Positions 19,984 to 47,685 of a stretch of DNA of 64,000 bases are shown here, piece by piece; within the stretch, counting starts at the first letter, position 1; every line of letters begins with the position of its first letter. A program made the translations under genes and the position numbers. The notes under the pieces were generated by a model, which did not search any database, had not been told where the DNA came from, and saw only the letters and a list, made by a program, of their open reading frames with translations. Source of the DNA: a virus; the IMG/VR virus record IMGVR_UViG_3300030503_000573, positions 1 through 64,000 of that record. One strand, given 5' to 3'.

Positions 19984-21474
19984 CTAGAAGCCCCCCTTGT
20001 TGCCCAGGGCGAGTGCCACACCGTAGCAGAATGTGTCGAACACATCGTCAGCCCGCTTGGCCTCCTCGGGGTCGGCGATGGAGTAGTTCTCGACCTGGGA
20101 GATCAGGTGGTTCTTGGCCTCGCCCTTGAACACCACCACCCGGTCGTAGGCCCGGCGCGTCAGCTTGACCTTGCCGGTGCTCACGTAGCCCGACACGCTC
20201 AGCGCCCGGCCGTCCTTGCCGAGCGAGGTCAGCTTGGAGTTGATGGCGTGGGCCTTGGAGCCCTTGATGTTCTTCTGCTGCTGGAGCAGTATGATGCCCG
20301 ACGAGGCGTCCTCGATCCACACCCCCAGGTAGCCCTGGCGCGCGCCGAGGTCGCGGGCCATCTGCTCGCCGACCGTCTGCACGCTAGGCAGCCAAGCCTC
20401 CAGCGAGGCCCCCTCCAGCTGCCGGTAGTCGTAGTCGATGACCGCCAGCGGGTAGCCGCAGCCGCCGAACTTGGTGACCGCGAAGTACGTGGTGGCCACG
20501 CCGTCGTGGTTCTTGCCCGTCTTGGCCGCCGTGTCCATGACCGCGAAGACCGCGTCGCAGACCTTGGGCACCTCGATTGGCGCCCCGTTGACCAGCATGT
20601 TCTGCAGGTCAAAGAACTTCTGGCCGCTCCACCTGATCTTCCAGTTGCCCCTCAGCAGCCGCTCGCGCTCGACGAGGGGCAGGGCAAGCAGGTTGGCCAT
20701 GTAGCGCGGGTCGGCCCGCAGCAGCGCCTTGTTGTCGCTGAGCAGCGACGGTATGAAGGTCAGGCTCTTGGGCGGGATCGGCCTGTTCTCAACCGGGTCG
20801 ACGTAGTTGACGAGGTCGAGGGGGTCGTCTGCCCAGACCAGGTCGTCGCCAACACGAACGAACCACCGCACCGCGCCGGCCCGCTCTGGTATGGCGAGCC
20901 CCGTGTTCTGGTCAATCCACCACTCAATGAGCTTGGCGACCCAGCTGTCGCAGTCGGGGTTGCACGTCGCCCTGATGTAGGGCTCGACCCCGCACGTAGA
21001 GCGGTTGCGGCTCACCATGTACCAGAACTGGTAGGCCGAGAAGTGGGTCAGCTCGTCGAAGCAGATCAGCGGTATCTGCGAGCCCTGGTAGTCGAGCACA
21101 TTCTTGTCGTGCTCCAGGTGGGCGAACGTGACGCTCGCCCCGCTCGGCCACCGCCACCACAGGTCGTACTCGCGCGGCTTCGGCGGGTTCGGCAGCTGGG
21201 TGTACAGCTTGAGGCTCTCGTCCCACAGCGCACCCTCGTTCCTAATCTGGACCGAGGTGCGCCGGAAGAAGACCGCGCCGAAGTCGCGCCGGTGGGTGTG
21301 GCGCAGTGGCTCCATGAGGAGGGCCCAGGTCTTGCCGCCGCCGGCCGCCCCGCCATAGATGGCGATGTCGGCCGGGGTGCTCAGAAAGGCCGTCTGCGGC
21401 CCCGGCTGCGGGCCGAGGGTGCCAGGCGGCTGAGCGTCGAGTACGTCGAGGCCGCCGGCCCGTGCCCTGCCCAA
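19984..21474 (-). CDS. terL: Terminase large subunit (start uncertain)
   Basis: PQPGPQTAFL, Walker A YGGAAGGGKT, Walker B ICFDELTHF, RATCNP, nuclease DTAAKT...DDVFD. Confidence 0.95.
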   Translation of the reverse strand: MGRARAGGLDVLDAQPPGTLGPQPGPQTAFLSTPADIAIYGGAAGGGKTWALLMEPLRHTHRRDFGAVFFRRTSVQIRNEGALWDESLKLYTQLPNPPKPREYDLWWRWPSGASVTFAHLEHDKNVLDYQGSQIPLICFDELTHFSAYQFWYMVSRNRSTCGVEPYIRATCNPDCDSWVAKLIEWWIDQNTGLAIPERAGAVRWFVRVGDDLVWADDPLDLVNYVDPVENRPIPPKSLTFIPSLLSDNKALLRADPRYMANLLALPLVERERLLRGNWKIRWSGQKFFDLQNMLVNGAPIEVPKVCDAVFAVMDTAAKTGKNHDGVATTYFAVTKFGGCGYPLAVIDYDYRQLEGASLEAWLPSVQTVGEQMARDLGARQGYLGVWIEDASSGIILLQQQKNIKGSKAHAINSKLTSLGKDGRALSVSGYVSTGKVKLTRRAYDRVVVFKGEAKNHLISQVENYSIADPEEAKRADDVFDTFCYGVALALGNKGGF

Positions 21475-37484: not shown

Positions 37485-38174
37485 ATGACCAACACCACCT
37501 ACACCACCAAGCGGGCGGCCATAGCCGGCGCGCGCCGCGCCCTCGCCAAGGCGGGCGTCGAGAACGCCCTGAGCCAGGTCCACTTCAACGTCCACCTGCG
37601 GGAGGACAGCGACGAGTGGTACTGGGCGGCGGTGGACCTGACGCCGGCTGAGCGGAAGGCCCAGGTGACCAAGCCCTCAGGCAAGTCCTTTCCCGACGCT
37701 GACCCTGGTTCGACCAGGGAGCTGGCCGATCAGAAGGCCGCCCGCCAGTCTCGCGCGGCCAAGCAGGCCATCGCCGAGACCACGGCCAGGACGCCGCCCA
37801 CCCCGCCGCCCACCCCGCCGGTCGCTCCGGCCGAGCGCTGGCGCAAGCCCAAGCGCGCCGAGCCGTCGAAGATCGCCTACCGGCCGCGCTCGGGCTCGCA
37901 GCAGCGGGCGGCCTACGAGCTGCTCACCAGCCCGGACTACCCCGAGGGCATCGAGGCCCAGACCTTCTGCGACCTCATGAACCCGTGGGTCAAGCCTGGC
38001 GCGACGCCGTGGACCCCCGCCAACACCTGGGGCTTTCTCAACTACCTGCTCGTCAGCCAGAAGGGCTACGGCCTGAGCTTCGACGGCACCCGGTTCCGCC
38101 TGCTGGTGCCGAAGGACGAGCGCGACCCGGTCGCGCGCAAGGCCGACCCGCTGCCGCCGATGAAGGCGAAGTGA
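37485..38174 (+). CDS. Hypothetical early protein
   Basis: CATAAGGAG RBS; 229 aa. Confidence 0.7.
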   Translation: MTNTTYTTKRAAIAGARRALAKAGVENALSQVHFNVHLREDSDEWYWAAVDLTPAERKAQVTKPSGKSFPDADPGSTRELADQKAARQSRAAKQAIAETTARTPPTPPPTPPVAPAERWRKPKRAEPSKIAYRPRSGSQQRAAYELLTSPDYPEGIEAQTFCDLMNPWVKPGATPWTPANTWGFLNYLLVSQKGYGLSFDGTRFRLLVPKDERDPVARKADPLPPMKAK

Positions 38175-38383
38175 TGCGCAAGCCCACCACCCACCAGAGC
38201 TCCGTCATCGAGCTGCTCCGGCTCGGGCATGTCACGCCCGAGCCGCACGCCCCCCGCGCGGCGGTGGCCCACTACGAGGCCAACCCGGCGGCGGCCGTGT
38301 GGGTGGTCGCCCGTACCCTCAGCGGTGCCAACCTCACCGAGATGTGGCGCGTCCACCCCGACGGCCGCGCGGAGCAGTTCTGA
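38174..38383 (+). CDS. Hypothetical protein
   Basis: TGATG-coupled at both ends. Confidence 0.55.
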   Translation: MRKPTTHQSSVIELLRLGHVTPEPHAPRAAVAHYEANPAAAVWVVARTLSGANLTEMWRVHPDGRAEQF

Positions 38384-39348
38384 TGAGCATCAGCATGAGA
38401 GGCTGGACCTACGGGGCCGAGCACGAGTTCGTGGACTGGCCACGGTCGAGGCCGCTCCCTGCGGGGTGCACCGCCCTGACGAATGAGTACACCATCGTCA
38501 ACTCGACCGGGGTGGCGACCGACCCGCACCACGACCCGGCCCGGCGCACCTACGCCTGGGGCCACGAGGTCAACACCCCGCCGACCGACGACATCGGGGG
38601 CCAGGTCGGCATCATGATGGAGCTGCTGGAGGCGCTGCCCGAGGCCCGCGTCAACTACCGCTCTGAGCTCAACATCCACATCCGGGTGCCAGGCCTGCGA
38701 GACGACCTCGCGGCGCTGAAGCGCCTCGCCGACTACAACGGCCGCCACCTGAGGACCGCCGTCGAGCTGGTCGACCCCATGAGCCCCCCGGTGCGCTCCC
38801 TGGGCATGACCGACGACGAGTGGGAGGGCGCCAAGCGCAACTACGTGGTGCGCCGCAACTTCCAGCACCGGGTGCTGCCGCCCGACCGCACGGCCCGCCA
38901 GCTGGCGGCTGCCACCACCACTGAGTTCTTCGAGGCCGAGGTGCCGAAGGCGAGGGGCAACGGCCGCCCGATGTGGCACGCCCAGCCCCGGTGCGCGGTA
39001 AACCTGCGGCAGCTGCTGCAGACCGACACGGTGGAGTTCCGCCACTGGGCGGGGACGCTGAACGCCGGCTTGTTCCAGAACGCTGGGCTCTGGTGCATGT
39101 TGTACCTGCGAGGAGCCCTCTTCGATCCTGATACTGCGCCAACAGCTCTGTGGAATGGAATGGCGAGCAGCTTGTTAGAATTCCCACCCCAGCACCCCTA
39201 CGAGCACTGGAAGGAGCGTCGTTTCCGCGCCACCACCCACGACGGCTCCAACCGCCGTGACGAGATTCTACGCAACATCGCGGCCATCGAGAGCGGCGAG
39301 TTCGACGACCTGCCCGAGTCGGTCGCACCTAGGAGGCTGCCGCTGTGA
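38383..39348 (+). CDS. Putative amidoligase (COOH-NH2 ligase, glutamine synthetase-like fold)
   Basis: TYGAEHE, HEVNTPP, LNIHIR, RCAVNL, TVEFRH motifs in canonical order. Confidence 0.75.
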   Translation: MSISMRGWTYGAEHEFVDWPRSRPLPAGCTALTNEYTIVNSTGVATDPHHDPARRTYAWGHEVNTPPTDDIGGQVGIMMELLEALPEARVNYRSELNIHIRVPGLRDDLAALKRLADYNGRHLRTAVELVDPMSPPVRSLGMTDDEWEGAKRNYVVRRNFQHRVLPPDRTARQLAAATTTEFFEAEVPKARGNGRPMWHAQPRCAVNLRQLLQTDTVEFRHWAGTLNAGLFQNAGLWCMLYLRGALFDPDTAPTALWNGMASSLLEFPPQHPYEHWKERRFRATTHDGSNRRDEILRNIAAIESGEFDDLPESVAPRRLPL

Positions 39349-40193
39349 CGCGCATCGACGTAGCCGTCATCGGCGGGGGCCTGTTCGGGCGCACCATCGC
39401 GGCCGAGATGTGGGCCCAGGGACGGGAGTGTCAGGTACTCGACGACGCGCGGCCCTGGAGGGGCTCGGCCCCGGCCGCCTGCCTGATGCGGCCAAGCTGG
39501 TTCTCCAAGATGGAGAGGGGCGAGTACGTCGCCTCGATGGACCGGCTGGACCGGCTGTTCGGGGTCAAGAAGGTCAGGTTCGAGACGCCCGCAGGGCCGG
39601 CCGACCTGGACTGGGTGGACCCAGCCGTGGTGATGCGGCCGGACGCCTGTGTCATACCGGCGACGGTCACCGACATCTGGCGCGGCGAGGGCTACTGGGC
39701 GCTCAGCGTCAACACAGGACAGCCGGTCCACGCCCGCTCGGTCGTCGTGGCCACCGGCGTTTGGGTGCCGGAGCTTGTCAGGACGCCCCACAACATCACC
39801 GCCCTCGGCGGGTGGGCCGTGACCTGGGCATGGCCCTACGAGCGCCAGCAGGGCCCGAGCCGCCTGGAGCCGTGGGCTCCCTACAAGCAGCTCATCGGCT
39901 TCCAGCGGGGGGCTTGGGAGTGGTGGGCCGGCGACGGCACGGCGCTCCTCCCGGGATCGCTCACGCCAGAACGGCGCGACGCCTCCGAGAACCGCCTCCT
40001 GGCCTTCGGCAAGCGCCTTGGCCTAGCGGGTGTCGCCAGCATCACGGGCGGCCTCCGGCCGAAGGTTCCCGGGCTGCGCGCGCCGGCCCTCGTCGAGGAG
40101 GTCGCGCCCGGCCTGTGGATCGCGACCGGCGGCGCAAAGAACGGAACCCTTGGCGCGGCCTGGGCCTCGCTCCAGCTGAAGGACAGGCTCTAG
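39345..40193 (+). CDS. FAD-dependent oxidoreductase (DAO/glycine oxidase-like)
   Basis: VAVIGGGLFG dinucleotide fold, VVVATGVW, GLRP, ATGGAKNG. Confidence 0.85.
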   Translation: MTRIDVAVIGGGLFGRTIAAEMWAQGRECQVLDDARPWRGSAPAACLMRPSWFSKMERGEYVASMDRLDRLFGVKKVRFETPAGPADLDWVDPAVVMRPDACVIPATVTDIWRGEGYWALSVNTGQPVHARSVVVATGVWVPELVRTPHNITALGGWAVTWAWPYERQQGPSRLEPWAPYKQLIGFQRGAWEWWAGDGTALLPGSLTPERRDASENRLLAFGKRLGLAGVASITGGLRPKVPGLRAPALVEEVAPGLWIATGGAKNGTLGAAWASLQLKDRL

Positions 40194-40559
40194 ATGCGCT
40201 TCGTGCTCCGCTCCAAGCTCCACAACGCCACGGTCACCGAGGCGAACCTGCTGTACGTGGGCTCGATCACCATCGACGAGCACCTCATGGAGGTCGTCGG
40301 CCTGTGGCCCGGCGAGCGCGTGCTGGTGGTCTCCAACACGAGCGGGGCCCGCCTGGAGACCTACGTCATCACCGGCGACCGCTACTCCGGGGCGATCTGC
40401 ATGAACGGGGCCGCCGCCCACCTCATCTCGGCCGGCGAGCAGGTCATCATCATGGGCTTCGAGCTGGCCGAGCGGCCCATCACACCGGCCGTGGCCCTGT
40501 GCACGCCTAATAACCAGGTAGCACGCATGCTAAGCGAAATCTCAGGAGAGTTCCTATGA
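40194..40559 (+). CDS. panD: Aspartate 1-decarboxylase (pyruvoyl-dependent)
   Basis: SKLH, YVG-SITID autocleavage site, GARLETYVI, NGAAAH all intact. Confidence 0.95.
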   Translation: MRFVLRSKLHNATVTEANLLYVGSITIDEHLMEVVGLWPGERVLVVSNTSGARLETYVITGDRYSGAICMNGAAAHLISAGEQVIIMGFELAERPITPAVALCTPNNQVARMLSEISGEFL

Positions 40560-40729
40560 TCCAAGCCCTCGTCATGGCAGTGATGCTGTGCGCGCTAGTG
40601 GTGGTCACCGCCAAGGTGCTGACCCTGCTGCTGCGCCTCGTGCTGGTGCTCGCCGGCATGGCGGTGCTGGCCGTGCTCGGGGCAGCCACATTCCTCATCA
40701 CGCTCGCCGCGTCTGTTGCGAGCGCCTAG
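40556..40729 (+). CDS. Small hydrophobic membrane protein (57 aa, not in ORF track)
   Basis: AGGAG RBS, ATGA overlap with panD; almost entirely hydrophobic. Confidence 0.6.
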   Translation: MIQALVMAVMLCALVVVTAKVLTLLLRLVLVLAGMAVLAVLGAATFLITLAASVASA

Positions 40730-40779
40730 AGACCCGCGCGCGGCGGCTTCCGCGCACAGCAAGAAGGAGGACTACGACT

Positions 40780-40938
40780 ATGGACAAGATCATGAGCTAC
40801 CTGGGCGACGAAGGCGGTGCCAGCGCCGCTGAGTACGCCTTGATCCTGGCGCTGATCGCCCTGGTGATCATCGTCAGCGTCACGACCCTCGGCACCAACA
40901 TCAACGGTGTCTTCTCGCACGCTGCCAAGTCTATCTGA
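40780..40938 (+). CDS. flp: Flp/Fap (Tad) type IV prepilin
   Basis: AAGGAGG RBS; 52 aa MDKIMSYLGDEGG-ASAAEYALILALIALVIIVSVTTLGTNINGVF with G-1, E+5, Y+6. Confidence 0.9.
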   Translation: MDKIMSYLGDEGGASAAEYALILALIALVIIVSVTTLGTNINGVFSHAAKSI

Positions 40939-40982
40939 CGCGGCGCGGCGGCCCGGGGTGGTGAGCCCCGGGCGACTACCTT

Positions 40983-41543
40983 GTGAATCATATGGAGTTC
41001 TCAGACGTGGCCAGGGCGATGTTCTACGACAGCTATCAGGACGAAGTGAGGGACTGGATGCTCCAGACCTTCCCGCCCGAGGTCTGCCAGGACCGGGTCG
41101 AACGCGCCGACCGCCTGCTGGAGGAGGTCTTCGAGCTGCTCCAGAGCGGAGGCTACGACCCGGCGCGGGTCGCAATGATCCGCGACTACGTCTGGGGCCG
41201 ACCGGTCGGCGAGCCGGCGCAGGAGGTGGGTGGTGTCGCTGTGACCCTCGCGGCCTACTGCTGGGTGCACGGCCTTGACTACGAGGCTGCTGCCAGGGCC
41301 GAGGTGGCCCGGGTGTGGACCATGATTGATGTCATCCGCAGGAAGCAGGCGGCCAAGCCCAAGGGGAGCCCGCTGCCGGTCGCGGTGGACCACCCGGCGG
41401 AGGCTCCTGTATCCAGAACAGCTGTCATGATATTTGGACAGCCTAAGCTGTACTATGAGGTCTACGAATGCGATCCTCGTGATGGCGCGATGTGGACTGA
41501 TGAGCGCGTCACGTCATGGTTTAGAGGCGAGCCGCTGCCGTGA
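40983..41543 (+). CDS. MazG-like NTP pyrophosphohydrolase
   Basis: RLLEEVFEL...QEVGGV all-alpha NTP-PPase-like pattern. Confidence 0.6.
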   Translation: MNHMEFSDVARAMFYDSYQDEVRDWMLQTFPPEVCQDRVERADRLLEEVFELLQSGGYDPARVAMIRDYVWGRPVGEPAQEVGGVAVTLAAYCWVHGLDYEAAARAEVARVWTMIDVIRRKQAAKPKGSPLPVAVDHPAEAPVSRTAVMIFGQPKLYYEVYECDPRDGAMWTDERVTSWFRGEPLP

Positions 41544-41935
41544 CCAGAACCGTCCCCCGCACCTCGCCCCCGCTCGACCTGGAGCTGGTCGCGCGCACCC
41601 TGCGCACCGCCACCTACCGGGCCTGGATGCTGAGCCTGACCAACAACCGCATGGCCGTGCGCTCCTACGAGGAGATGAAGGCCCCGGAGGTCGGGCAGAT
41701 GGTCGTCGAGCTGACGACCATCTGGGCGCGTGCGTTCGACCTCAAGGGCGTCGGGGAGCTGGTGCTCGTAGCCCAGGAGAGGATCGACCTCGGCGGTGAG
41801 CCCTGGGACGAGGTCTTCCAAGGCACCCCGTGCCCGACCGAGCCAGTCTACTACGTCAAGAACCTAGACGGCACCGTGACCCGCTGGACGAACTGCCAGC
41901 TGCTAGCCTGCCCAGCAGACCTGGGGCTAGTCTAG
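41540..41935 (+). CDS. Hypothetical protein
   Basis: GTGA-coupled 131 aa ORF. Confidence 0.6.
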   Translation: MTRTVPRTSPPLDLELVARTLRTATYRAWMLSLTNNRMAVRSYEEMKAPEVGQMVVELTTIWARAFDLKGVGELVLVAQERIDLGGEPWDEVFQGTPCPTEPVYYVKNLDGTVTRWTNCQLLACPADLGLV

Positions 41936-41940
41936 CACCC

Positions 41941-42261
41941 ATGACCCGCCCCATCCACTTCACCCCGGCCGACGTCGAGCGCTTCCTGAGCTTCGTCGTG
42001 CCCGCGCTTGACGGCTGCCACCACTGGGCAGGTGGCACGAGCTGCGGTGGCCACAACACGAGCGAATACGGCTCGTTCTGGGTGGACGGGCGCGGGGTGC
42101 GTGCCCACATCTTCGCCGCCGTCGCGCTGGGCGACGGGCACGCGCCGGGCAACCACGTCGACCACCTGTGCGTGACGTCGCTGTGCGTCAACCCAGCCCA
42201 CCTGGAGGACGTGCCCCCGCCGGTGAACCAGGCGCGGAAGCTGGAGCGGCGGAGGCGTTGA
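41941..42261 (+). CDS. HNH endonuclease
   Basis: GCHHWAG, YGSF, RAH, VDHLC...CVNPAHLE. Confidence 0.85.
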   Translation: MTRPIHFTPADVERFLSFVVPALDGCHHWAGGTSCGGHNTSEYGSFWVDGRGVRAHIFAAVALGDGHAPGNHVDHLCVTSLCVNPAHLEDVPPPVNQARKLERRRR

Positions 42262-42578
42262 TGGCCCACCCCTCCACCCTCATGGCCATCGCGGCTGGCG
42301 ACTACCGCCTGTTCTGGGTGCGGGTTGGCCCGACCTCGGCGCACACCGCGTGCTGCTGCCCGGCCCACGCCCTCGACAAGCTGGTGATGATCGGCGTGCT
42401 GCGCAGCGACGGCCGCCACCCGGCCGAGGGCGGCGAGATTGACGGCCGGTTCGTGCACTGGTTCTTGGCCCACCCAGAAGACCTCGACCGGCCGATGGGG
42501 CAGGGCGAGGTCGACTTCATCCAGGCCGCGTGCGAGAGCGCGGGGCTGAGCAGCATCGTGAGCGAGGCGAGGAACTAG
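42261..42578 (+). CDS. Hypothetical protein
   Basis: TGATG-coupled with GGAGG RBS. Confidence 0.55.
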   Translation: MAHPSTLMAIAAGDYRLFWVRVGPTSAHTACCCPAHALDKLVMIGVLRSDGRHPAEGGEIDGRFVHWFLAHPEDLDRPMGQGEVDFIQAACESAGLSSIVSEARN

Positions 42579-42580
42579 CA

Positions 42581-43477
42581 ATGATGGAAGTCGAAGACTT
42601 TGGCCGCCTGCTGATCGAGACCGGCGACCTCGACCCGGTGTACGTGGCGCTGAACCGCATGCGTTGGCCGGGCGGGTTCGCCCAGAGGGACCGCTGGCTG
42701 CAGGCGTACTGGTGCTGCTACCACGTGGGGGCCAGCTGCTGGCTCGCCGAGGTTCCGGACTTCTGGGGCTTCATGCGGCTGGCCGCCGTCAACGAGCGGC
42801 CGTCTCCCCTGGGCGGCCGGTGGCCCAGGGCGGCCGAGCGCCGCCACTGGCGGGGTCAGGCAGCCATAGACAGCGTCAACGACCTGGAGCGCCGCTACGG
42901 CAACCCGAACGCCCCTGACAAGAGCTGGTCCATGGTGCGGTACTGCGGCTTCGACGTCGAGCGGGAGGACATCCACCAGCCCAAGGTCCCCCTCGCGCTG
43001 ATTGAGGCCCGCGTCAAGGAGCACACCGGCTTCGGGCCCTGGATCGCCTTCAAGGTCGCCGACATGCTGGAGCGGTGCTGCGGGGTGCCGGTCGAGTTCG
43101 GCAACGCGCCGATGTTCTACGACAGCCCGAAGAAGGCCGCGCTGGCGCTGTTCAAGATGAGGGCCGGCCTGCCAGCCGCTGCCAAGGTCAAGGACGAGCT
43201 GGGGGCCATCTCCCAGGTCTCAGCCCACCTGCTGCGCACCATAGGCGACCTGGAGGCCCCCGGCGGGGGCCGGGCGTGCGGGCTGCCCGAGGTCGAGACC
43301 GTGCTGTGCAAGTGGGGCTCCCACCTCAGCGGCCACTATCCGCCGGGGAAGGACATCGCCGAGATTTATGAGGGGCTGTCCGAGTGGGAGACAGTCAGCC
43401 CGCTGGCCAGGAAGTTCCTCGCGGCGATGCCTGTTGACCAAGCAAAGCTGCTAGGTGCGGCCCCGGCTGCGGCCTAG
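42581..43477 (+). CDS. Amino acid:DNA transferase (aGPT-Pplase clade 2-like)
   Basis: TGDLDPVY, AYWCCYH, ERRHWRG, FGPWIAFKVADM, EVETVLCKW, YPPGKD motifs; beside kinases and TS homolog. Confidence 0.8.
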   Translation: MMEVEDFGRLLIETGDLDPVYVALNRMRWPGGFAQRDRWLQAYWCCYHVGASCWLAEVPDFWGFMRLAAVNERPSPLGGRWPRAAERRHWRGQAAIDSVNDLERRYGNPNAPDKSWSMVRYCGFDVEREDIHQPKVPLALIEARVKEHTGFGPWIAFKVADMLERCCGVPVEFGNAPMFYDSPKKAALALFKMRAGLPAAAKVKDELGAISQVSAHLLRTIGDLEAPGGGRACGLPEVETVLCKWGSHLSGHYPPGKDIAEIYEGLSEWETVSPLARKFLAAMPVDQAKLLGAAPAAA

Positions 43478-43503
43478 GTTAACCACTGACATAAGGAGCT
43501 CAC

Positions 43504-44142
43504 ATGGGCTGGGTACTCAACATACGCGGGACCAACGGGTCAGGGAAGAGCCACCTCGTGCGCTCGATGCTGCCGACGCCTGAGTATAGGCCAAATGTTA
43601 ACCTAGCCCGCTACGACTCACCGACGAAGCGCTACCCTGACCGCAAGAATGTAGTACCAGGGTATGTACTCAGTGAGCGAGACCTCGGACTGTTTGGTGT
43701 TGTTGGCTCCTACGAGACCCCGACAGGCGGCCTCGACGGAGTGCCAACATTTGCGGCTCAGATCGCGAGCTGTGCTCAGCTGCTCAACGACAACGAGTGC
43801 TGTACAGTCCTCGCCGAGGGCGTGCTGGCCTCCACGGTCTTCGGAGCCTGGGGCGCGTTCGCCGATGACCTCTCGCGGTTATCTCGACACCGTATGGCGT
43901 TCCTCTACATGAGCACGCCGGTTGACGTATGCCTGATGCGCATCACCGAGCGCCAGATTAAGGCCGGTCGCATCAGGGATATCAACGAGCAGCTGGTGCG
44001 CGACAAGGTGCGGGCCGTCGCCGCGACCCGCGAGCGGGCGCTGGCCGCCGGCCACGCGGTGTTCGACCTGCCGTTCGGGCTGGAGCGCGTGGCGCTGACT
44101 GGCATCATGCGCGGCGACATGGAGAGCTACCGTGGGAACTAG
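43504..44142 (+). CDS. 5-hmdU DNA kinase-like P-loop kinase 1
   Basis: NIRGTNGSGKS, VGSY...GGLD, LAEG. Confidence 0.8.
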   Translation: MGWVLNIRGTNGSGKSHLVRSMLPTPEYRPNVNLARYDSPTKRYPDRKNVVPGYVLSERDLGLFGVVGSYETPTGGLDGVPTFAAQIASCAQLLNDNECCTVLAEGVLASTVFGAWGAFADDLSRLSRHRMAFLYMSTPVDVCLMRITERQIKAGRIRDINEQLVRDKVRAVAATRERALAAGHAVFDLPFGLERVALTGIMRGDMESYRGN

Positions 44143-44761
44143 GCTGATAATCAACCTGCGTGGGCCCAACGGGGCCGGCAAGACGACGGTGGCCCGGGGG
44201 TTCCTGGAGCACAAGACTATCGACCTGGAGCCATACAGATACATCAACTCTGAGGGTCGAAGCAGAAGCTGGCCTATAGCCCAATGCAAGGCGCCAGGCC
44301 TCCAGCTGCCTATCTACGTGCTTGGACGCTATGATGTCCAGCAGGGCGGCTGTGACACGGAGAAGGACATGGACGCCATAGAGCGCTGCGTCCAGTGGGC
44401 CGTGGACAACCTCACCGATGGTCACATCTTCTTCGAGGGCTTCGTGGTCTCCAAGAGCGGCGGCCGGTGGCTGGAGTTCGCCGGGCGCAACGAGCGGGCT
44501 GGGAAGGGTCGCTACGTCTGGGCCTTCCTGAGGCCCAACCTCAACGAGCTGGAGGCACGCATCAAGGGCCGCAATGGCGGCAAGGAGGTCAAGCTTCCAC
44601 TCCTTGACAACACGATGCGCACAGTTGACCTCATTCGCAACAAGGCAAAGGCCCTCGTCACCGACCGCCGGTTCCTGGTGGACCTGGACTGGCAGCTCAG
44701 CGCGCCCATGGTTACCGAGCAGCTGATCCTACGCTTACAGCAGCTGGAGGCCGTCCGATGA
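44132..44761 (+). CDS. 5-hmdU DNA kinase-like P-loop kinase 2
   Basis: NLRGPNGAGKT, LGRY...GGCD, FFEG. Confidence 0.8.
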   Translation: MGTRLIINLRGPNGAGKTTVARGFLEHKTIDLEPYRYINSEGRSRSWPIAQCKAPGLQLPIYVLGRYDVQQGGCDTEKDMDAIERCVQWAVDNLTDGHIFFEGFVVSKSGGRWLEFAGRNERAGKGRYVWAFLRPNLNELEARIKGRNGGKEVKLPLLDNTMRTVDLIRNKAKALVTDRRFLVDLDWQLSAPMVTEQLILRLQQLEAVR

Positions 44762-45384
44762 CTACCCGAGTCATCGTCAACATCAGGGGTGCCAACGCCA
44801 GCGGCAAGACGACGCTGATGCGCCGCGTGATTGGGTCTGCGCCATACGTAGACCTAGGCCAGTTTCCAGACGCCCAGGGGAAGATGGGCTTCGTCCAAGG
44901 CCACCAGTTCTCGCTGGAGGGGTTCGAGCTGCCCTTCCTGGTCATCGGCCGGTACGATGCGTCCAAGTACTCGGGGTGCGACAAGATCAAGAGCGCTGAC
45001 CAGATCGAGGGGGTGTTGCGCTGGGCCATAGACGGCGGCTTCGCCGGCCACGTCCTCTTCGAGGGCTTCCGGGTCTCCAAGAGCTGGGCCCGCTTCGCCG
45101 CCGTGCGCAACTGGTGCGTGAGCAACCATCATGCCAGCTGGGTGTGGGCCTTCCTGCGCGCCGAGCCCGAGCTGATCTTTGAGCGCTCGGCCGCCCGGCG
45201 CGAGGCCGACGCGAGGCCCATTGACAAGGAGGAGCTCGCGGCAGTGTGCCGGGTGATGGCCTCCACCTGGCGCAAGGCCAAGGTGGCGATGCCACGAGAC
45301 TGCCTGGACCTGGACGCCTCGCAGCCGACCGAGGTGCTGTACGCGCAGCTGCTCGGGCGCATCAAGATGCTGGAGTCGGCGTGA
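44758..45384 (+). CDS. 5-hmdU DNA kinase-like P-loop kinase 3
   Basis: NIRGANASGKT, IGRY...SGCD, LFEG. Confidence 0.8.
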   Translation: MTTRVIVNIRGANASGKTTLMRRVIGSAPYVDLGQFPDAQGKMGFVQGHQFSLEGFELPFLVIGRYDASKYSGCDKIKSADQIEGVLRWAIDGGFAGHVLFEGFRVSKSWARFAAVRNWCVSNHHASWVWAFLRAEPELIFERSAARREADARPIDKEELAAVCRVMASTWRKAKVAMPRDCLDLDASQPTEVLYAQLLGRIKMLESA

Positions 45385-46373
45385 TGGACGTCGGCCCGCT
45401 GGTCGCCTGGGTGAATGAGCGCGAGGCGGTGCGGCTTAGGAAGGCTATCATTGCTGCTGGCGTTGACAGCTGGGGCCTAGAAGCCGGCTCCCTCACTCGT
45501 GATGTCTGGGGCGAGCATCCCAGAGACTACTGGCAGCTGGGTCACCTCACCGACGACCCCATCCTTCAGCAGTTCAAGTTCTGCAACGTCCGCCGCGAAG
45601 ACGACCGGGTGACTGTCTGGGTTCGCGAGCACATCAGGGAGCCGTATGCCGACCAGCAGCACCTGTGGCTCATGCTGGCCATCGCGAGGACGATCAACTG
45701 GCCCCCGGCGCTGCTGGAGCTGATCAGGGGCGGAGCCGAGGGCGTGTCCTCGTTCCCCAACATGCAGGACTTCGATCCGCGCTGCATGGCCCAGGTGCTG
45801 GAGGCGCGGCGGGCGCGTGGCGAGAAGGTCGAGACCGGCGCGTACATGATCAGGGCGGAGAGCCGGAAGGACAAGCCCTGGTACAGCTGGTCGAAGCAGC
45901 GGTATATCGCAGAGATCGTGATTGGCCATCTCTGGTACATGCGGGCCAGCTGGAAGCATGACTTTGAAAAGAAGAAGCTGACTACGCTGGAGCGCACCTG
46001 GGAAATTTTCCAGGAATATGACGGCTGGGGCCCATTCATGGCCTTCCAGGTCATCGTCGACCTCGCACACACCCGCTACCTGCGAGACGCGCCCGACCGC
46101 TCTAGCTGGGCCGCGCTCGGGCCCGGCTCGCGCCGGGGGCTGAACCGGCTGTACGGCCGGCCGGTGACAACTGGGCTGACGCAGGCCCAGGGTCTGGAGG
46201 AGATGCGAGAGGTCCAGGCGGCGGTGAACGCGCCGGGCGTGCTGGCGCCGTGGGTCGAGAAGATCGCGCTGAGCGACATACAGAACTGCTTGTGCGAGAC
46301 GGATAAATACCTCAGGGTAAGGAACGGCGAGGGTCGGCCGAGGGCCCTCTACAAGCCATGGAGTGGGTGGTGA
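45384..46373 (+). CDS. aGPT-Pplase clade 1-like DNA modification protein
   Basis: ERE, TDDPILQQFKFCNVRREDDRVT, GPFMAFQ...D, GPGSRRGL, IQNCLCETDKY. Confidence 0.85.
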   Translation: MDVGPLVAWVNEREAVRLRKAIIAAGVDSWGLEAGSLTRDVWGEHPRDYWQLGHLTDDPILQQFKFCNVRREDDRVTVWVREHIREPYADQQHLWLMLAIARTINWPPALLELIRGGAEGVSSFPNMQDFDPRCMAQVLEARRARGEKVETGAYMIRAESRKDKPWYSWSKQRYIAEIVIGHLWYMRASWKHDFEKKKLTTLERTWEIFQEYDGWGPFMAFQVIVDLAHTRYLRDAPDRSSWAALGPGSRRGLNRLYGRPVTTGLTQAQGLEEMREVQAAVNAPGVLAPWVEKIALSDIQNCLCETDKYLRVRNGEGRPRALYKPWSGW

Positions 46374-46597
46374 GCATGATCAATCGGATCAACCAGCTTA
46401 TGGTGCGAACCCGATGCTTTGCTGGCCTCCACCCTCGGGTAATCTCTGGTCGAGGGATGTGGGGCGACGCTGGCACCTGCCTGGTATGCGGAGCCGACGG
46501 CTATGGCCTCAAGGGCCTTCACAACACAGACCTCGCCGATGCAAGCGAAGATGACCGAGAGCGCCTGAGGGTGCTGGACGAGCAGAGGACGGCCTGA
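46370..46597 (+). CDS. Hypothetical Cys/His small protein
   Basis: CFAGLH...CLVCG; coupled to neighbours. Confidence 0.5.
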   Translation: MSMINRINQLMVRTRCFAGLHPRVISGRGMWGDAGTCLVCGADGYGLKGLHNTDLADASEDDRERLRVLDEQRTA

Positions 46598-47685
46598 TGC
46601 ACACCATCCACGCCCGCAACGTCAACGACGCCCTACACGCCGGCCTGATGCTGGTCCACAGCCACGGCATCCCGGAGACGAGCCGCAATGGTCCGGTCCT
46701 CCGCGTGCCCGAGCCGGTGGCCACCGTGTACGCCCGGCCGTGCGAGCGCGTGCTGATCCAGCCGTGGCGCGACGCCAACCCGTTCTTCCACCTCGTCGAG
46801 GCCTTCTGGATGCTCGCCGGGCGCGACGACCTGCGGCAGCTGACGCCCTACGTGTCCCGCATGAGGGAGTTCTCCGACGACGGCGGGGTGACGCAGCCCG
46901 GGGCGTACGGGAAGCGGTGGCGCGATCACGTCAAGAGCCCTTTCCTGGGCGGCATCGACCAGCTCAGCTGGGTAGCCGGGAGGCTTAGAGAGGACCCCAG
47001 CGACCGGCGCTGCGTCATTCAGATGTGGGACGCCAGCGTGGACATCCACAAAGCGTCCATCGGTGGCAACGACGCCCCGTGCAACCTCACGGCCACGCCC
47101 TACGTCGCGGCCGGCGCGCTCCACCTCGCGGTGTTCTGCCGCTCCAATGACATCATCTGGGGCGCATACGGCGCCAACGCGGTGCACTTCTCGGTGCTGC
47201 TGGAGTACCTGGCGGCGCGGGTTGGGGTGCCGGTCGGGACATACACGCAGGTGAGCATCAACTACCATGCCTACCTCAGCACCTTCCCCAAGGTCATGCC
47301 GGTCGAGGCGGCGCAGCCGTACAGCGTGAGCGGATTTGACGCCCTTCAACCCATACCTATGTTTTCAGAATGGTTGGTCGGCGGCGAAGATCGGGAATGC
47401 GAGCGCATCTTCCAGGAGGACCTCAGGGTCTTCTTCGAGGAGGGCCCCTTCGCCTACGCCACCGCCGGGCGCATTCCCTTCATGCGCCGGGTGCTGGTGC
47501 CTATGTGCCTGGCCCACCAGCACTGGCGCACGAAGAAGGGCGAGGACCGCTACCTCGGCGCGCTGGAGATTCTGCGCAGCTGCGCCGCGCCGGACTGGCG
47601 CCGGGCCGCCGAGGAGTGGGTTGGCCGCCGGTACGACAGGTGGAAGCTCGCCGCAGACGACGGAGCCCACGATGCTGAGGGATAG
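46597..47685 (+). CDS. Thymidylate synthase homolog, probable dUMP hydroxymethylase
   Basis: SRNG, RDANPFFH, PCN catalytic Cys, RSNDIIWG...NAVHFS (Asn = dUMP specificity), NYHAY, C-terminal DWRRAAEEW; context. Confidence 0.85.
   Translation: MHTIHARNVNDALHAGLMLVHSHGIPETSRNGPVLRVPEPVATVYARPCERVLIQPWRDANPFFHLVEAFWMLAGRDDLRQLTPYVSRMREFSDDGGVTQPGAYGKRWRDHVKSPFLGGIDQLSWVAGRLREDPSDRRCVIQMWDASVDIHKASIGGNDAPCNLTATPYVAAGALHLAVFCRSNDIIWGAYGANAVHFSVLLEYLAARVGVPVGTYTQVSINYHAYLSTFPKVMPVEAAQPYSVSGFDALQPIPMFSEWLVGGEDRECERIFQEDLRVFFEEGPFAYATAGRIPFMRRVLVPMCLAHQHWRTKKGEDRYLGALEILRSCAAPDWRRAAEEWVGRRYDRWKLAADDGAHDAEG

What the first reader, a model, noticed from the sequence alone, without database searches (positions are those of the whole stretch)
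40780..40938. Phage-encoded Flp/Tad pilin resembling Caulobacter PilA
Seen: a 52-aa ORF with strong RBS (hidden inside a longer mis-started ORF in the track), prepilin cleavage site G|ASAAEY with Glu+5/Tyr+6, a hydrophobic helix and VTTLGTN. From memory this closely resembles Caulobacter PilA. No other tad/cpa gene is in the window, so it must use host machinery. It is preceded by a tiny hydrophobic ORF (40556-40729) and followed by a GC hairpin (40951-40973). Established: Tad pili are phage receptors (e.g. phiCbK) and signal surface contact and cell-cycle progression in Caulobacter. Inference: a decoy pilin that poisons or re-coats the host pilus for superinfection exclusion, or manipulates pilin-dependent signalling.
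Basis: partly seen in the sequence, partly recalled or inferred. Interest (0 to 1): 0.8.

Follow-up and report, generated by a model that had tools for sequence, protein, structure and literature searches.

The report
Lytic-type phage carries host-like Flp pilin
A complete, uncultured 73-kb tailed phage from peat carries an intact gene for the tiny subunit of a bacterial Tad (Flp) adhesive pilus but none of the machinery to build one, so it most likely feeds its own variant subunit into its host's pilus system, a trick so far tested only for another pilus type.

Summary
Observation confirmed. Window 40780-40938 (+) encodes a 52-aa Flp/Tad prepilin: Pfam PF04964 at 49.2 bits (cut-off 32.2), the motif G|ASAAEY, and an alignment to solved Caulobacter PilA (8u1k) that starts at the predicted cleavage site.

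- **Carrier.** The record is a 73,083-bp virus record (CheckV 100%) with terminase, portal, sheath, baseplate, DNA polymerase, primase and ribonucleotide reductase. I found no integrase. None of 7 other Tad/Cpa families tested is present.
- **Position.** The gene lies in the plus-strand DNA-metabolism block, inside a thymidine-hypermodification cluster.
- **Not a chimera.** Independent contigs from 2 of 4 peat runs bridge panD, the pilin and the next phage gene without a difference.
- **Origin.** The nearest relatives (75-88% identity) are metagenomic. The one close relative whose flanks I could read (locus L084) lies beside TadE-like genes. The nearest named genome is a Caulobacteraceae MAG (69%), inside a cpa locus.
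- **Sequence pattern.** The assembly core matches those pilins. The phage copy differs at outward-facing C-terminal positions.

This argues against a poison subunit. It fits surface re-coating (receptor masking) or pilin-pool signalling. Function is inferred, not shown.

The scan has noted phage Flp pilins before on other DNA (156 notes, at least 143 genomes). One paper lists prophage Flp pilins, and none that I found tests one.

The parts
40780..40938 (+). Flp/Tad prepilin gene, 52 aa including stop codon
   Evidence: PF04964 at 49.2 bits against a cut-off of 32.2. PDB PilA 8u1k at E 2e-07. 50 of 50 candidates are homologues at E<=0.001 and all carry PF04964.
40764..40770 (+). Shine-Dalgarno AAGGAGG, 9 nt before the ATG
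   Evidence: Read from the sequence. It is unpaired in the minimum-energy fold of 40727-40782.
40780..40818 (+). 13-residue leader peptide ending D10-E11-G12-G13; predicted prepilin-peptidase cut after G13
   Evidence: Mature PilA residue 1 aligns with A14. G13 is kept in 61 of 61 homologues, D10 in 58 of 61 and E11 in 55 of 61. Cleavage itself is inferred.
40819..40935 (+). Predicted mature pilin, 39 aa: E5/Y6 motif, hydrophobic core, outward-facing C-terminal tail with phage-specific residues G43, H47 and K50
   Evidence: Alignments. AlphaFold2 model is one helix over residues 2-51, mean pLDDT 87. Orientation in the pilus is taken from PMC11067988 (passages).
40951..40973 (+). GC hairpin after the stop codon (9-bp stem, 5-nt loop, no T tract)
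   Evidence: Fold of 40936-40990: -27 kcal/mol, z -1.49. Not called a terminator by the scan.
40556..40729 (+). 57-aa hydrophobic orphan ORF, translationally coupled to panD (ATGA overlap); any link to the pilin is unknown
   Evidence: GC3 0.88 and GC2 0.40. AGGAG at 40544-40548. No Pfam hit above cut-off or PHROG family, no homologue, Atlas best score 0.83.
40194..40559 (+). Upstream neighbour: PanD-type aspartate decarboxylase (context, part of the DNA-modification cluster)
   Evidence: PF02261 at 128.5 bits.
40983..41543 (+). Downstream neighbour: phage protein of phrog_14118 (context)
   Evidence: phrog_14118 at E 3.2e-51. tblastn hits in 51 phage records, including Caulobacter phage Sansa at 55.6%.

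Best explanation
This is an intact major-pilin (Flp) gene of a Tad/Cpa type IVc pilus. A virulent-looking myovirus captured it from the tad locus of an alphaproteobacterial host, probably Caulobacteraceae-like. Shown: the family membership, the phage context, the lack of any Tad machinery on the phage, and the host-type core with a phage-specific outward-facing tail. Inferred: the gene is translated from its own strong ribosome-binding site together with the plus-strand DNA-metabolism genes. The prepilin enters the inner membrane and the host prepilin peptidase (CpaA/TadV) cuts it after G13. The 39-residue mature subunit has an assembly core matching host-type pilins, so it joins the host pilin pool and is polymerised by the host Tad machine. 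Its exposed C-terminal residues differ, so the pili of an infected cell present an altered surface. The most likely pay-off is receptor masking: rival pilus-binding phages, or the phage's own progeny, no longer adsorb to cells that are already taken. This would be the same logic as the prophage pilins P-FimU and P-PilA of type IVa pili.
For: - **Family.** PF04964 above cut-off. The PilA structure 8u1k aligns from the predicted cleavage site. The AlphaFold2 model is a single helix.
- **Real phage.** Terminase, portal, sheath, tape measure, baseplate, tail fibre, DNA polymerase, primase, RNR and helicases are present. CheckV gives 100%. There are 0 matches to tyrosine or serine recombinases. No family of an integration category appears among the hits for 50 phage proteins scanned against PHROGs.
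- **No Tad machinery.** 0 matches for 7 Tad/Cpa families in the whole record.
- **Physical linkage.** X2 record 13 (40412-41210) and X1 record 4 (40700-41139) bridge the gene with 0 differences, so 2 of 4 runs laid have a listed bridging contig.
- **Host origin.** The closest relative with readable context, L084 (87% aa, 77% nt), sits beside two TadE-like genes. L085 and the Caulobacteraceae MAG locus L005 (69%) carry Flp x2, RcpC/CpaB, and secretin or TadG/TadE genes.
- **Competent subunit.** Residues 13-31 match at least 34 of 61 homologues at every position, and G13, A16, A17, E18, Y19, A20, A24, I30 and G38 match 61 of 61.
- **Variant surface.** G43 occurs in 0 of 61 homologues, H47 in 0 of 61 and K50 in 5 of 61. 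In C. crescentus the C-terminal end points outward. Two substitutions there (prepilin N43R and T51A, which are mature residues 29 and 37) are reported to remove contacts with the phiCb5 maturation protein, and strain NA1000 does not adsorb that phage (PMC11067988, passages). Phage K50 is mature residue 37 by my mapping.
- **Precedent.** P-FimU proteins are built into the type IVa pilus and block tip-binding phages, and P-PilA genes occur in Xylella prophages (PMC12952977, abstract and passages).
Against: - Nothing here shows expression, processing or assembly, and no RNA run was available.
- The host is unknown: no species-representative genome carries a pilin closer than 69%.
- The P-FimU and P-PilA precedents are prophage genes that protect a lysogen, whereas this phage shows no lysogeny genes, so the benefit window would be one lytic cycle.
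- The two nearest capsid relatives in IMG/VR (major capsid protein 57% and 52%; 97% and 100% complete) lack any PF04964 match. The gene is therefore a lineage-specific accessory and could be a recent passenger.
- The variable tail positions also vary among the bacterial pilins themselves, so the phage-specific residues may simply copy an unsampled donor.
- The split of substitutions rests on 52 codons and one comparison (core pN 0.072, pS 0.434; tail pN 0.328, pS 0.469 against L084). It cannot say on which lineage selection acted.
Confidence: 0.45

Rival explanations
1. Signalling mimic. The phage does not care about the filament. It floods the inner membrane with mature pilin, and the first 17 residues (the CIP segment of Caulobacter PilA) are sensed by a PleC-type kinase. 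This raises c-di-GMP, pushes a G1 swarmer-type cell into S phase and shuts down pili. The phage thereby gains a replication-competent host, and the cell loses its pilus receptor as a side effect.
For: [quoted passage not shown] Synthetic CIP peptide lowers phiCbK susceptibility by 77% and attachment by 71% (PMC7196804, abstract and passages). The phage pilin keeps a leader with the D-E pair whose deletion was used there to block cleavage. By my count from the alignment, it is identical to PilA at 12 of the first 17 mature residues, and at those 17 positions it carries the majority residue of the 61 homologues. The gene lies among DNA replication and nucleotide-metabolism genes on the same strand, not among tail or lysis genes.
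Against: The pathway is shown only in C. crescentus. The host here is unknown, and a PleC partner was not looked for. Gene position is weak evidence of function. This reading does not explain why the phage copy differs precisely in the outward-facing tail.
Confidence: 0.2
2. Passenger gene. A small host gene was picked up by illegitimate recombination, is still intact because the capture is recent, and gives the phage no benefit.
For: It is absent from the 2 nearest capsid relatives examined. There is no PHROG family for it and no tblastn match in 50,697 GenBank phage records. Its GC3 of 0.885 is close to that of the bacterial homologue, 0.865, so composition cannot date the capture.
Against: It has a consensus-strength ribosome-binding site at ideal spacing and an intact frame. 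It is identical in contigs of the 2 peat runs whose listed pieces cover it, and no difference is listed inside the gene in any of the 4 runs laid. Flp genes recur in other, unrelated phage contexts: L002 beside tail-fibre genes and L003 in a P22-like module, and Vibrio harveyi prophages (PMC12482185, passages). This scan holds 156 notes in at least 143 genomes (AI notes, unchecked). Recurrent independent capture of one tiny gene suggests selection.
Confidence: 0.2
3. Membrane-active small protein, not a pilus subunit. Together with the neighbouring 57-aa two-helix orphan, it perturbs the inner membrane (lysis timing, exclusion of injected DNA) independently of the Tad system.
For: Two adjacent very hydrophobic small ORFs on one strand. 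The orphan has no known family.
Against: The pilin keeps every family-specific non-hydrophobic residue (D10, E11, G13, E18, Y19, G38) that a generic membrane peptide would not need. The endolysin-like gene lies elsewhere, at record coordinates 63483-64196 on the minus strand.
Confidence: 0.08
4. Assembly artefact: a piece of host DNA wrongly joined into a viral contig.
For: The nearest relatives are bacterial.
Against: Contigs from separate runs span panD, the orphan ORF, the pilin and the next phage gene with 0 differences, although one of these runs may be the source sample. Only the 157-nt gene aligns to the bacterial locus L084, not the flanks. GC is even across the region: 0.665 in 40001-42000 against 0.678 for the genome.
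Confidence: 0.02

Closest known systems
Flp/Fap major pilins of Tad (type IVc) pili, Pfam PF04964; Caulobacter PilA (PDB 8u1k) and the Flp family pilin of 8u2b
   Same: Short leader ending in Gly, then XXXXEY, a hydrophobic helix, the VTTLGTN stretch, all-helical with no globular head. E 2e-07 to 8u1k, aligned from the mature N-terminus.
   Different: Encoded by a phage with no tad locus. The mature part is 39 residues against 45 in PilA. By my count 21 of 37 aligned residues are identical.
Flp pilins heading tad/cpa loci of uncultured bacteria (metagenome locus L084; proteins P0003-P0006; Caulobacteraceae MAG locus L005)
   Same: Same 52-aa length class. Identity is 85-87% (P0003-P0006) and 69% (L005). 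Residues 10-42 are almost identical.
   Different: Those genes lie next to TadE/TadG, RcpC/CpaB and secretin genes, often as tandem pilin copies. The phage copy is single, flanked by phage genes, and carries residues G43 and H47 seen in 0 of 61 homologues.
Prophage pilins P-FimU (Pseudomonas aeruginosa F10-like phages) and P-PilA (Xylella fastidiosa prophages), Sztanko et al., Cell Rep 2026 (PMC12952977)
   Same: A phage-encoded copy of a host pilus subunit that relies on the host machine. P-FimU is incorporated and blocks phages that bind that component (abstract and passages).
   Different: Those are type IVa pilins with globular domains, carried by prophages and acting in lysogens. The words Flp and Tad do not occur in that paper. 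Here the pilin is type IVc and the phage is virulent-looking.
Flp family pilins listed in Vibrio harveyi prophages phi345 and phiGANI1709 (PMC12482185)
   Same: A phage-borne Flp family gene, noted by sequence similarity (passages).
   Different: Those are in temperate prophages of a gammaproteobacterium and are interpreted as adhesion or virulence factors. The passages I read describe no functional test.
CIP, the 17-residue signalling segment of Caulobacter PilA (PMC7196804)
   Same: The phage pilin has the equivalent segment, 12 of 17 residues identical by my count, plus a leader for membrane insertion.
   Different: CIP acts through PleC in C. crescentus. No such partner was examined here.
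Phage inhibitors of type IV pili that are not pilins (Aqs1 of DMS3, PMC13436744; Zip, bioRxiv 10.1101/2024.03.05.583538)
   Same: The aim is the same: disabling a pilus receptor against competing phages (search listings and abstracts).
   Different: They bind the ATPase PilB or the chaperone PilZ. They are not subunits.

Membership tests
Flp/Fap pilin (Pfam PF04964; Tad/type IVc major pilin) | Profile match above the curated threshold | tested here: met
   49.2 bits against a cut-off of 32.2, E 4.5e-13; 48.1 bits in the six-frame search.
Flp/Fap pilin (Pfam PF04964; Tad/type IVc major pilin) | Leader ending in Gly followed by XXXXEY (Glu at +5, Tyr at +6 of the mature protein) | tested here: met
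   G13|A-S-A-A-E18-Y19. G13, E18 and Y19 are kept in 61 of 61 homologues. The PilA mature N-terminus aligns to A14.
Flp/Fap pilin (Pfam PF04964; Tad/type IVc major pilin) | Very small, purely helical subunit without a globular beta domain | tested here: met
   39-residue predicted mature protein. The AlphaFold2 model is one helix over residues 2-51, mean pLDDT 87.
Flp/Fap pilin (Pfam PF04964; Tad/type IVc major pilin) | Encoded in or beside a tad/cpa locus (peptidase, ATPase, platform, RcpC, secretin, pseudopilins) | tested here: not met
   0 matches for PF01478, PF00437, PF00482, PF07811, PF00263, PF16976 and PF13400 in the whole 73,083-bp record. The feature is met in the bacterial relatives L005, L084 and L085.
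Flp/Fap pilin (Pfam PF04964; Tad/type IVc major pilin) | Cleaved by a TadV/CpaA prepilin peptidase and polymerised into a filament | not testable with these tools
   Needs expression in a host with a Tad system.
Phage-encoded pilin acting as receptor mask (P-FimU / P-PilA type) | Phage gene homologous to a structural subunit of the host pilus | tested here: met
Phage-encoded pilin acting as receptor mask (P-FimU / P-PilA type) | Carried by a prophage and expressed in the lysogen | tested here: not met
   No tyrosine or serine recombinase. No integration-category PHROG among the hits for 50 proteins scanned.
Phage-encoded pilin acting as receptor mask (P-FimU / P-PilA type) | Incorporated into the pilus and protective against phages that bind that subunit | not testable with these tools
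   Only an indirect hint: phage-specific residues sit at outward-facing positions.
CIP-type pilin signal (PilA to PleC to c-di-GMP) | Leader plus first 17 mature residues resembling the PilA transmembrane segment | tested here: met
   12 of 17 residues identical to PilA by my count from the alignment. The requirement is as stated in PMC7196804.
CIP-type pilin signal (PilA to PleC to c-di-GMP) | Interaction with the first transmembrane helix of PleC and a rise in c-di-GMP | not tested
   Host unknown; no PleC candidate examined.

The most novel reading that the evidence does not exclude
A virulent phage uses a stolen pilin as a hormone-like signal rather than as a building block. By over-filling the inner-membrane pilin pool it imitates pilus retraction and trips the host's PleC/PleD-type surface-sensing circuit. 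This forces a non-replicating swarmer-type cell into S phase, which supplies a phage that makes and hypermodifies a great deal of DNA. At the same stroke the cell loses the pili that rival phages need.
Probability: 0.15. Interest if true: 0.8.

Novelty: new variant of a known kind. Interest (0 to 1): 0.5.

Why it matters
Tad pili are adhesion organelles, surface sensors and phage receptors in many bacteria. Phage-encoded subunits have been shown to work as anti-phage defence only for type IVa pili and only from prophages (PMC12952977). A Flp subunit on a virulent-looking phage, with a host-type assembly core and a changed exposed tail, extends that idea to the simplest known pilin and to the lytic cycle.

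It can be tested in Caulobacter, where pilus labelling, pilus-dependent phages (phiCbK, phiCb5) and c-di-GMP reporters already exist.

The gene is also a practical host marker for an otherwise unassignable peat phage, pointing to a Caulobacteraceae-like bacterium.

Novelty is tempered. One paper already lists Flp genes in Vibrio prophages (PMC12482185). This scan has noted phage Flp pilins on many other genomes.

Tried and rejected
**Searches that found nothing or little**
- Megablast of 38000-44000 against GenBank phages gave no match.
- tblastn of the pilin against 50,697 phage records gave no match at E<=0.01. The low-complexity filter was on, so this is a weak negative.
- No PHROG family matched the pilin.
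- IMG/VR scan with the single pilin: 2 of 90 pattern stretches confirmed. With alignment A1: 4 of 77. These patterns fit only this pilin subfamily, so the counts are not a prevalence estimate.

**Closest homologues**
That several of them share a 'longest contig' length (for example 1648, 1173, 2302 and 8889) suggests tandem pilin genes, but this is only an inference.
- The listing of cluster members gave no taxonomy beyond one Caulobacteraceae name.

**Sister phages**
- The downstream gene gave no IMG/VR match.
- PanD gave 3 distant loci, which I did not examine.
- The major capsid protein gave 2 relatives. They have no PF04964 match and no homologue of the downstream gene, so synteny could not be compared.

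**Expression and RNA features**
- No RNA holder was listed.
- Terminator scan: 0 sites. Downstream hairpin z -1.49. Upstream hairpin z +0.46. Neither hairpin is evidence of a transcription unit.
- No tRNA found.

**Orphan ORF57**
- No homologue. Atlas best score 0.83, below the level of a lead.

**Substitution counts**
- rest on 52 codons and cannot date the capture or assign selection to the phage lineage.

**Literature**
- One search returned only unrelated virome papers.
- Searches found 1 and 4 papers. Only PMC12482185 concerns a phage-borne Flp pilin.
- Supplements were not opened.

- Complex prediction: my claim that the subunit joins host pilin would pass by likeness to the solved filament.
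- The search of protein representatives.
- Fold search: a single helix matches anything.

**Considered and rejected**
- Poison subunit: the core is unchanged.
- Chimeric assembly.
- Virion component: the gene lies outside the structural module.
- L167 as a phage example: its Flp lies with an A24 peptidase and a bacterial ACCA gene next to a P22-type portal, so it is probably host flank.
Full report
**What is there.** The plus strand at 40780-40938 carries an ATG-started ORF of 52 codons.
- AAGGAGG lies at 40764-40770, nine bases before the ATG.
- The mechanical ORF list shows only a longer GTG-started frame from 40588.
- Homologues begin with the same MDKIM, so the short form is the gene.
- Pfam PF04964 (Flp/Fap pilin) matches at 49.2 bits, E 4.5e-13, against a curated cut-off of 32.2. 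The six-frame search of the whole record finds the same single place.
- Against the Protein Data Bank the best hits are Caulobacter PilA (8u1k, E 2e-07) and a Flp family pilin (8u2b). The first residue of the mature, solved pilin aligns with phage residue A14.
- This places the predicted prepilin-peptidase cut after G13, in the motif G|ASAAEY. I count 21 identical residues of the 37 aligned.
- An AlphaFold2 model built on 23 aligned sequences is one helix over residues 2-51, mean pLDDT 87.

**The carrier is a phage, and the gene belongs to it.** The window is the first 64 kb of a 73,083-bp IMG/VR virus record that CheckV rates 100% complete.
- PHROG scans of 50 of its proteins give small and large terminase, portal, head morphogenesis, tail sheath, tape measure, baseplate hub and wedge, tail fibre and an endolysin-like protein on the minus strand.
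- On the plus strand they give helicases, ribonucleotide reductase, exonuclease, a thymidylate-synthase homologue, DNA polymerase and primase.
- The structural genes run across the record's ends, as expected of a complete, permuted genome.
- Tyrosine and serine recombinase profiles find nothing, and no integration-category family appears among the PHROG hits. The phage therefore looks virulent.
- GC content is even, 0.647-0.713 in 2-kb windows and 0.665 around the gene.
- I laid Logan contigs from four peat-metagenome runs on 38500-43000. One contig of X2 (40412-41210) and one of X1 (40700-41139) cover the pilin gene together with phage sequence on both sides, without a single difference. No difference within the gene is listed in any of the four runs.
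- One of these runs may be the source of the record. Even so, the Logan assemblies are separate from the IMG assembly, so a chimera is very unlikely.
- The stretch occurs in 24 listed runs, all labelled peat metagenome. 8 of them hold at least half of its sampled words.

**No pilus machinery on the phage.** Profiles gave 0 matches each in the whole record, while each rang in the Caulobacter control genome. The profiles were:
- prepilin peptidase (PF01478)
- the secretion ATPase (PF00437)
- the platform protein (PF00482)
- TadE pseudopilins (PF07811)
- secretin (PF00263)
- RcpC/CpaB (PF16976)
- the TadG-type domain (PF13400)

The pilin can act only through a host Tad system.

**Neighbourhood.**
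- Upstream on the same strand lie an FAD-dependent oxidoreductase (39345-40193) and a PanD-type aspartate decarboxylase (40194-40559).
- Between PanD and the pilin lies a 57-codon, very hydrophobic ORF (40556-40729). Its ATG overlaps the panD stop.
- Downstream lies a phage protein of phrog_14118 (40983-41543).
- Further downstream are an amino acid:DNA transferase homologue (42530-43477), 5-hmdU DNA kinase domains (44132-44761 and 45246-46373) and a thymidylate-synthase homologue (46597-47685).
- The pilin is thus embedded in a thymidine-hypermodification cluster within the DNA-metabolism block. It is not among tail or lysis genes.
- The hydrophobic ORF has coding-like composition (GC3 0.88) and an AGGAG at the right distance. 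It has no family and no homologue.
- The hairpin at 40951-40973 is real but statistically ordinary and has no T tract.

**Where the gene came from.**
- The large protein collection returns 50 homologues, all carrying PF04964. The best 22 after the self-match (P0002-P0023) are 73-88% identical, and most of them are 52 residues long.
- Among one genome per species, 196 of 600 pattern stretches encode a relative. The best is a Caulobacteraceae MAG (L005, 69% over the full length) and another Caulobacteraceae MAG follows (62%).
- In L005 the pilin heads a locus with a second Flp gene, RcpC/CpaB, a secretin, a CpaE-like ATPase and a divergent TadG-like gene.
- Among metagenome contigs, 226 of 599 stretches are relatives.
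- The closest, L084 (87% protein identity by my count; 77% DNA identity over 157 nt), aligns to the phage only across the gene itself. It sits beside two TadE-like genes.
- L085 has two Flp genes, RcpC/CpaB, TadG and two TadE genes.
- The phage gene therefore derives from a bacterial tad locus of a Caulobacteraceae-like organism that is not among the species representatives.
- In run X3, a further contig matches only the core of the gene. By my reading of its flanking letters it encodes the bacterial-type variant, so such bacteria live in the same peat (table 7).
- Weak, independent hints of an alphaproteobacterial gene pool: half of the large terminase is 68-71% identical to Rhizobium phages, and the downstream protein has relatives in Caulobacter and Brevundimonas phages.

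**What the sequence says about function.** I aligned the phage protein with 61 homologues.
- It is typical at the positions that matter for processing and packing: D10 (58 of 61), E11 (55 of 61), and G13, A16, A17, E18, Y19, A20, A24, I30 and G38 (61 of 61 each). The hydrophobic core follows the majority throughout.
- In the Caulobacter filament the N-terminal end points to the centre. Glu at mature position 5 bonds to neighbouring subunits, and the C-terminal end points outward (PMC11067988, passages).
- The phage protein departs from its relatives in that outward part: G43 (0 of 61), H47 (0 of 61) and K50 (5 of 61). It also differs at two leader positions, S6 (1 of 61) and G12 (3 of 61).
- The same paper reports that two of four differences between PilA of a phiCb5 host strain and of the non-host NA1000 (prepilin N43R and T51A) affect bonds to the phage's maturation protein, and that NA1000 does not adsorb the phage.
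- Mapped through the alignment, those are mature positions 29 and 37. Phage K50 is mature position 37 and G43 is position 30.
- Against L084, the 29 core codons show proportions of 0.072 non-synonymous and 0.434 synonymous differences. The 10 tail codons show 0.328 and 0.469.
- These are small numbers from one pair, and the tail positions also vary among the bacteria. They show only that the core is constrained and the tail is free.
- Taken together, this looks like an assembly-competent subunit with a different outer face. It does not look like a defective 'poison'.

**Most likely mechanism and its rivals.**
- *Receptor masking (0.45).* I rate as most likely that the prepilin is made during infection and cut by the host peptidase. 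It then mixes with host pilin, so that pili or the pilin pool of the infected cell change in a way that denies the pilus receptor to other phages. The closest tested precedent is P-FimU, a prophage minor pilin that is built into the Pseudomonas type IVa pilus and blocks tip-binding phages. The same paper notes PilA-like genes in Xylella prophages (PMC12952977, abstract and passages). That paper does not mention Flp or Tad. Its cases are prophages, whereas this phage shows no lysogeny genes.
- *Signalling (0.2).* In C. crescentus the leader plus the first 17 mature residues of PilA suffice to signal through PleC, raise c-di-GMP and start the cell cycle. The synthetic peptide lowers phiCbK susceptibility by 77% (PMC7196804). 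The phage pilin has this segment (12 of 17 residues identical to PilA by my count), and it lies among replication genes.
- *Passenger (0.2).* The two nearest capsid relatives in IMG/VR (57% and 52% capsid identity; 97% and 100% complete) have no Flp match. The gene is therefore a recent, lineage-specific acquisition and could be a passenger without function. Against that stand its strong ribosome-binding site and its recurrence elsewhere (next section).
- *Generic membrane peptide (0.08) and assembly artefact (0.02).* Both are poorly supported.

**Recurrence in other phage contexts.**
- L002, a 47-kb viral contig, has two Flp genes just beyond tail and tail-fibre genes.
- L003 has an Flp gene in a P22-like module with coat, stabilisation and ejection proteins.
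- A fourth IMG/VR locus, L167, is probably host flank.

**Comparison with what is known, and novelty.**
- Membership in the Flp/Fap pilin family is met on profile, motif, size and fold. The family's usual genomic association with a tad locus is not met. Processing and assembly cannot be tested here.
- In print I found one paper that lists Flp family pilins in two Vibrio harveyi prophages as putative adhesion factors, without a test in the passages I read (PMC12482185).
- The combination 'Flp pilin' with 'phage-encoded' gave only an unrelated review.
- This scan's own notes hold 156 entries in at least 143 genomes on phage Flp pilins, including marine T4-like and giant freshwater phages. They are unchecked AI notes. 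They gave me the lead to the P-FimU paper, which I then read.
- The present case is therefore a new variant of a known kind. It is a type IVc major pilin on a virulent-looking myovirus of a probable Caulobacteraceae host. It sits in a DNA-hypermodification cluster and has a host-type core with a private surface.

**Limits.**
- There are no expression data.
- The host is not identified.
- No sister phage was found for a within-lineage selection test.
- Paper supplements were not read.

Noticed in passing
window 38299-47685 (+): The pilin lies inside a thymidine-hypermodification cluster. The cluster holds an amino acid:DNA transferase homologue (PF18724, 42530-43477), 5-hmdU DNA kinase domains (PF18748 at 44132-44761; PF18723 at 45246-46373), a thymidylate-synthase homologue (46597-47685), a PanD-type decarboxylase (40194-40559) and an FAD oxidoreductase (39345-40193). 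The oxidoreductase is 41% identical to the enzyme of Pseudomonas phage PaMx11. Other notes of this scan cover the cluster.
   Followed up: partly
window 40556-40729 (+): 57-aa, two-helix hydrophobic orphan ORF, translationally coupled to panD (ATGA overlap). It has coding-like composition but no family or homologue.
   Followed up: yes
window 41830-42261 (+): ORF with a weak match, below cut-off (E 4.3e-04, 20.9 bits against 27), to the zinc-binding loop of His-Me homing endonucleases. It lies just downstream of the pilin region and overlaps neighbouring ORFs.
   Followed up: no
L002 5983-6395 (IMG/VR contig of 47,135 bp): Two tandem Flp genes on the strand opposite to, and directly beyond, tail protein and tail-fibre genes of a different phage. 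This is an independent case of phage-borne Flp pilins.
   Followed up: partly
L003 6001-6156 (IMG/VR contig of 14,139 bp): An Flp gene among P22-like coat, stabilisation-protein, ejection-protein and GH108 lysozyme genes.
   Followed up: partly
L167 1214-1970 (IMG/VR contig of 7,036 bp): An Flp gene followed by a type IV leader peptidase. A bacterial acetyl-CoA carboxylase subunit lies on one side and a P22-type portal on the other. This is probably a prophage border, so the pilin is host-encoded.
   Followed up: partly
window 40843-40905, run X3: A contig in the same peat run matches only the pilin core. By my reading of the flanking letters it continues as a bacterial-type variant (S at residue 12; a tail like protein P0002). 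A likely host-type pilin therefore co-occurs with the phage (table 7).
   Followed up: no
window 19984-21474 (-): The N-terminal half of the large terminase is 68-71% identical to Rhizobium phages RHph_TM3_3_3 and RHph_N28_2. The best full-length hits are Methanoculleus viruses at 45.5%. This is an odd mix, perhaps a mosaic gene.
   Followed up: no
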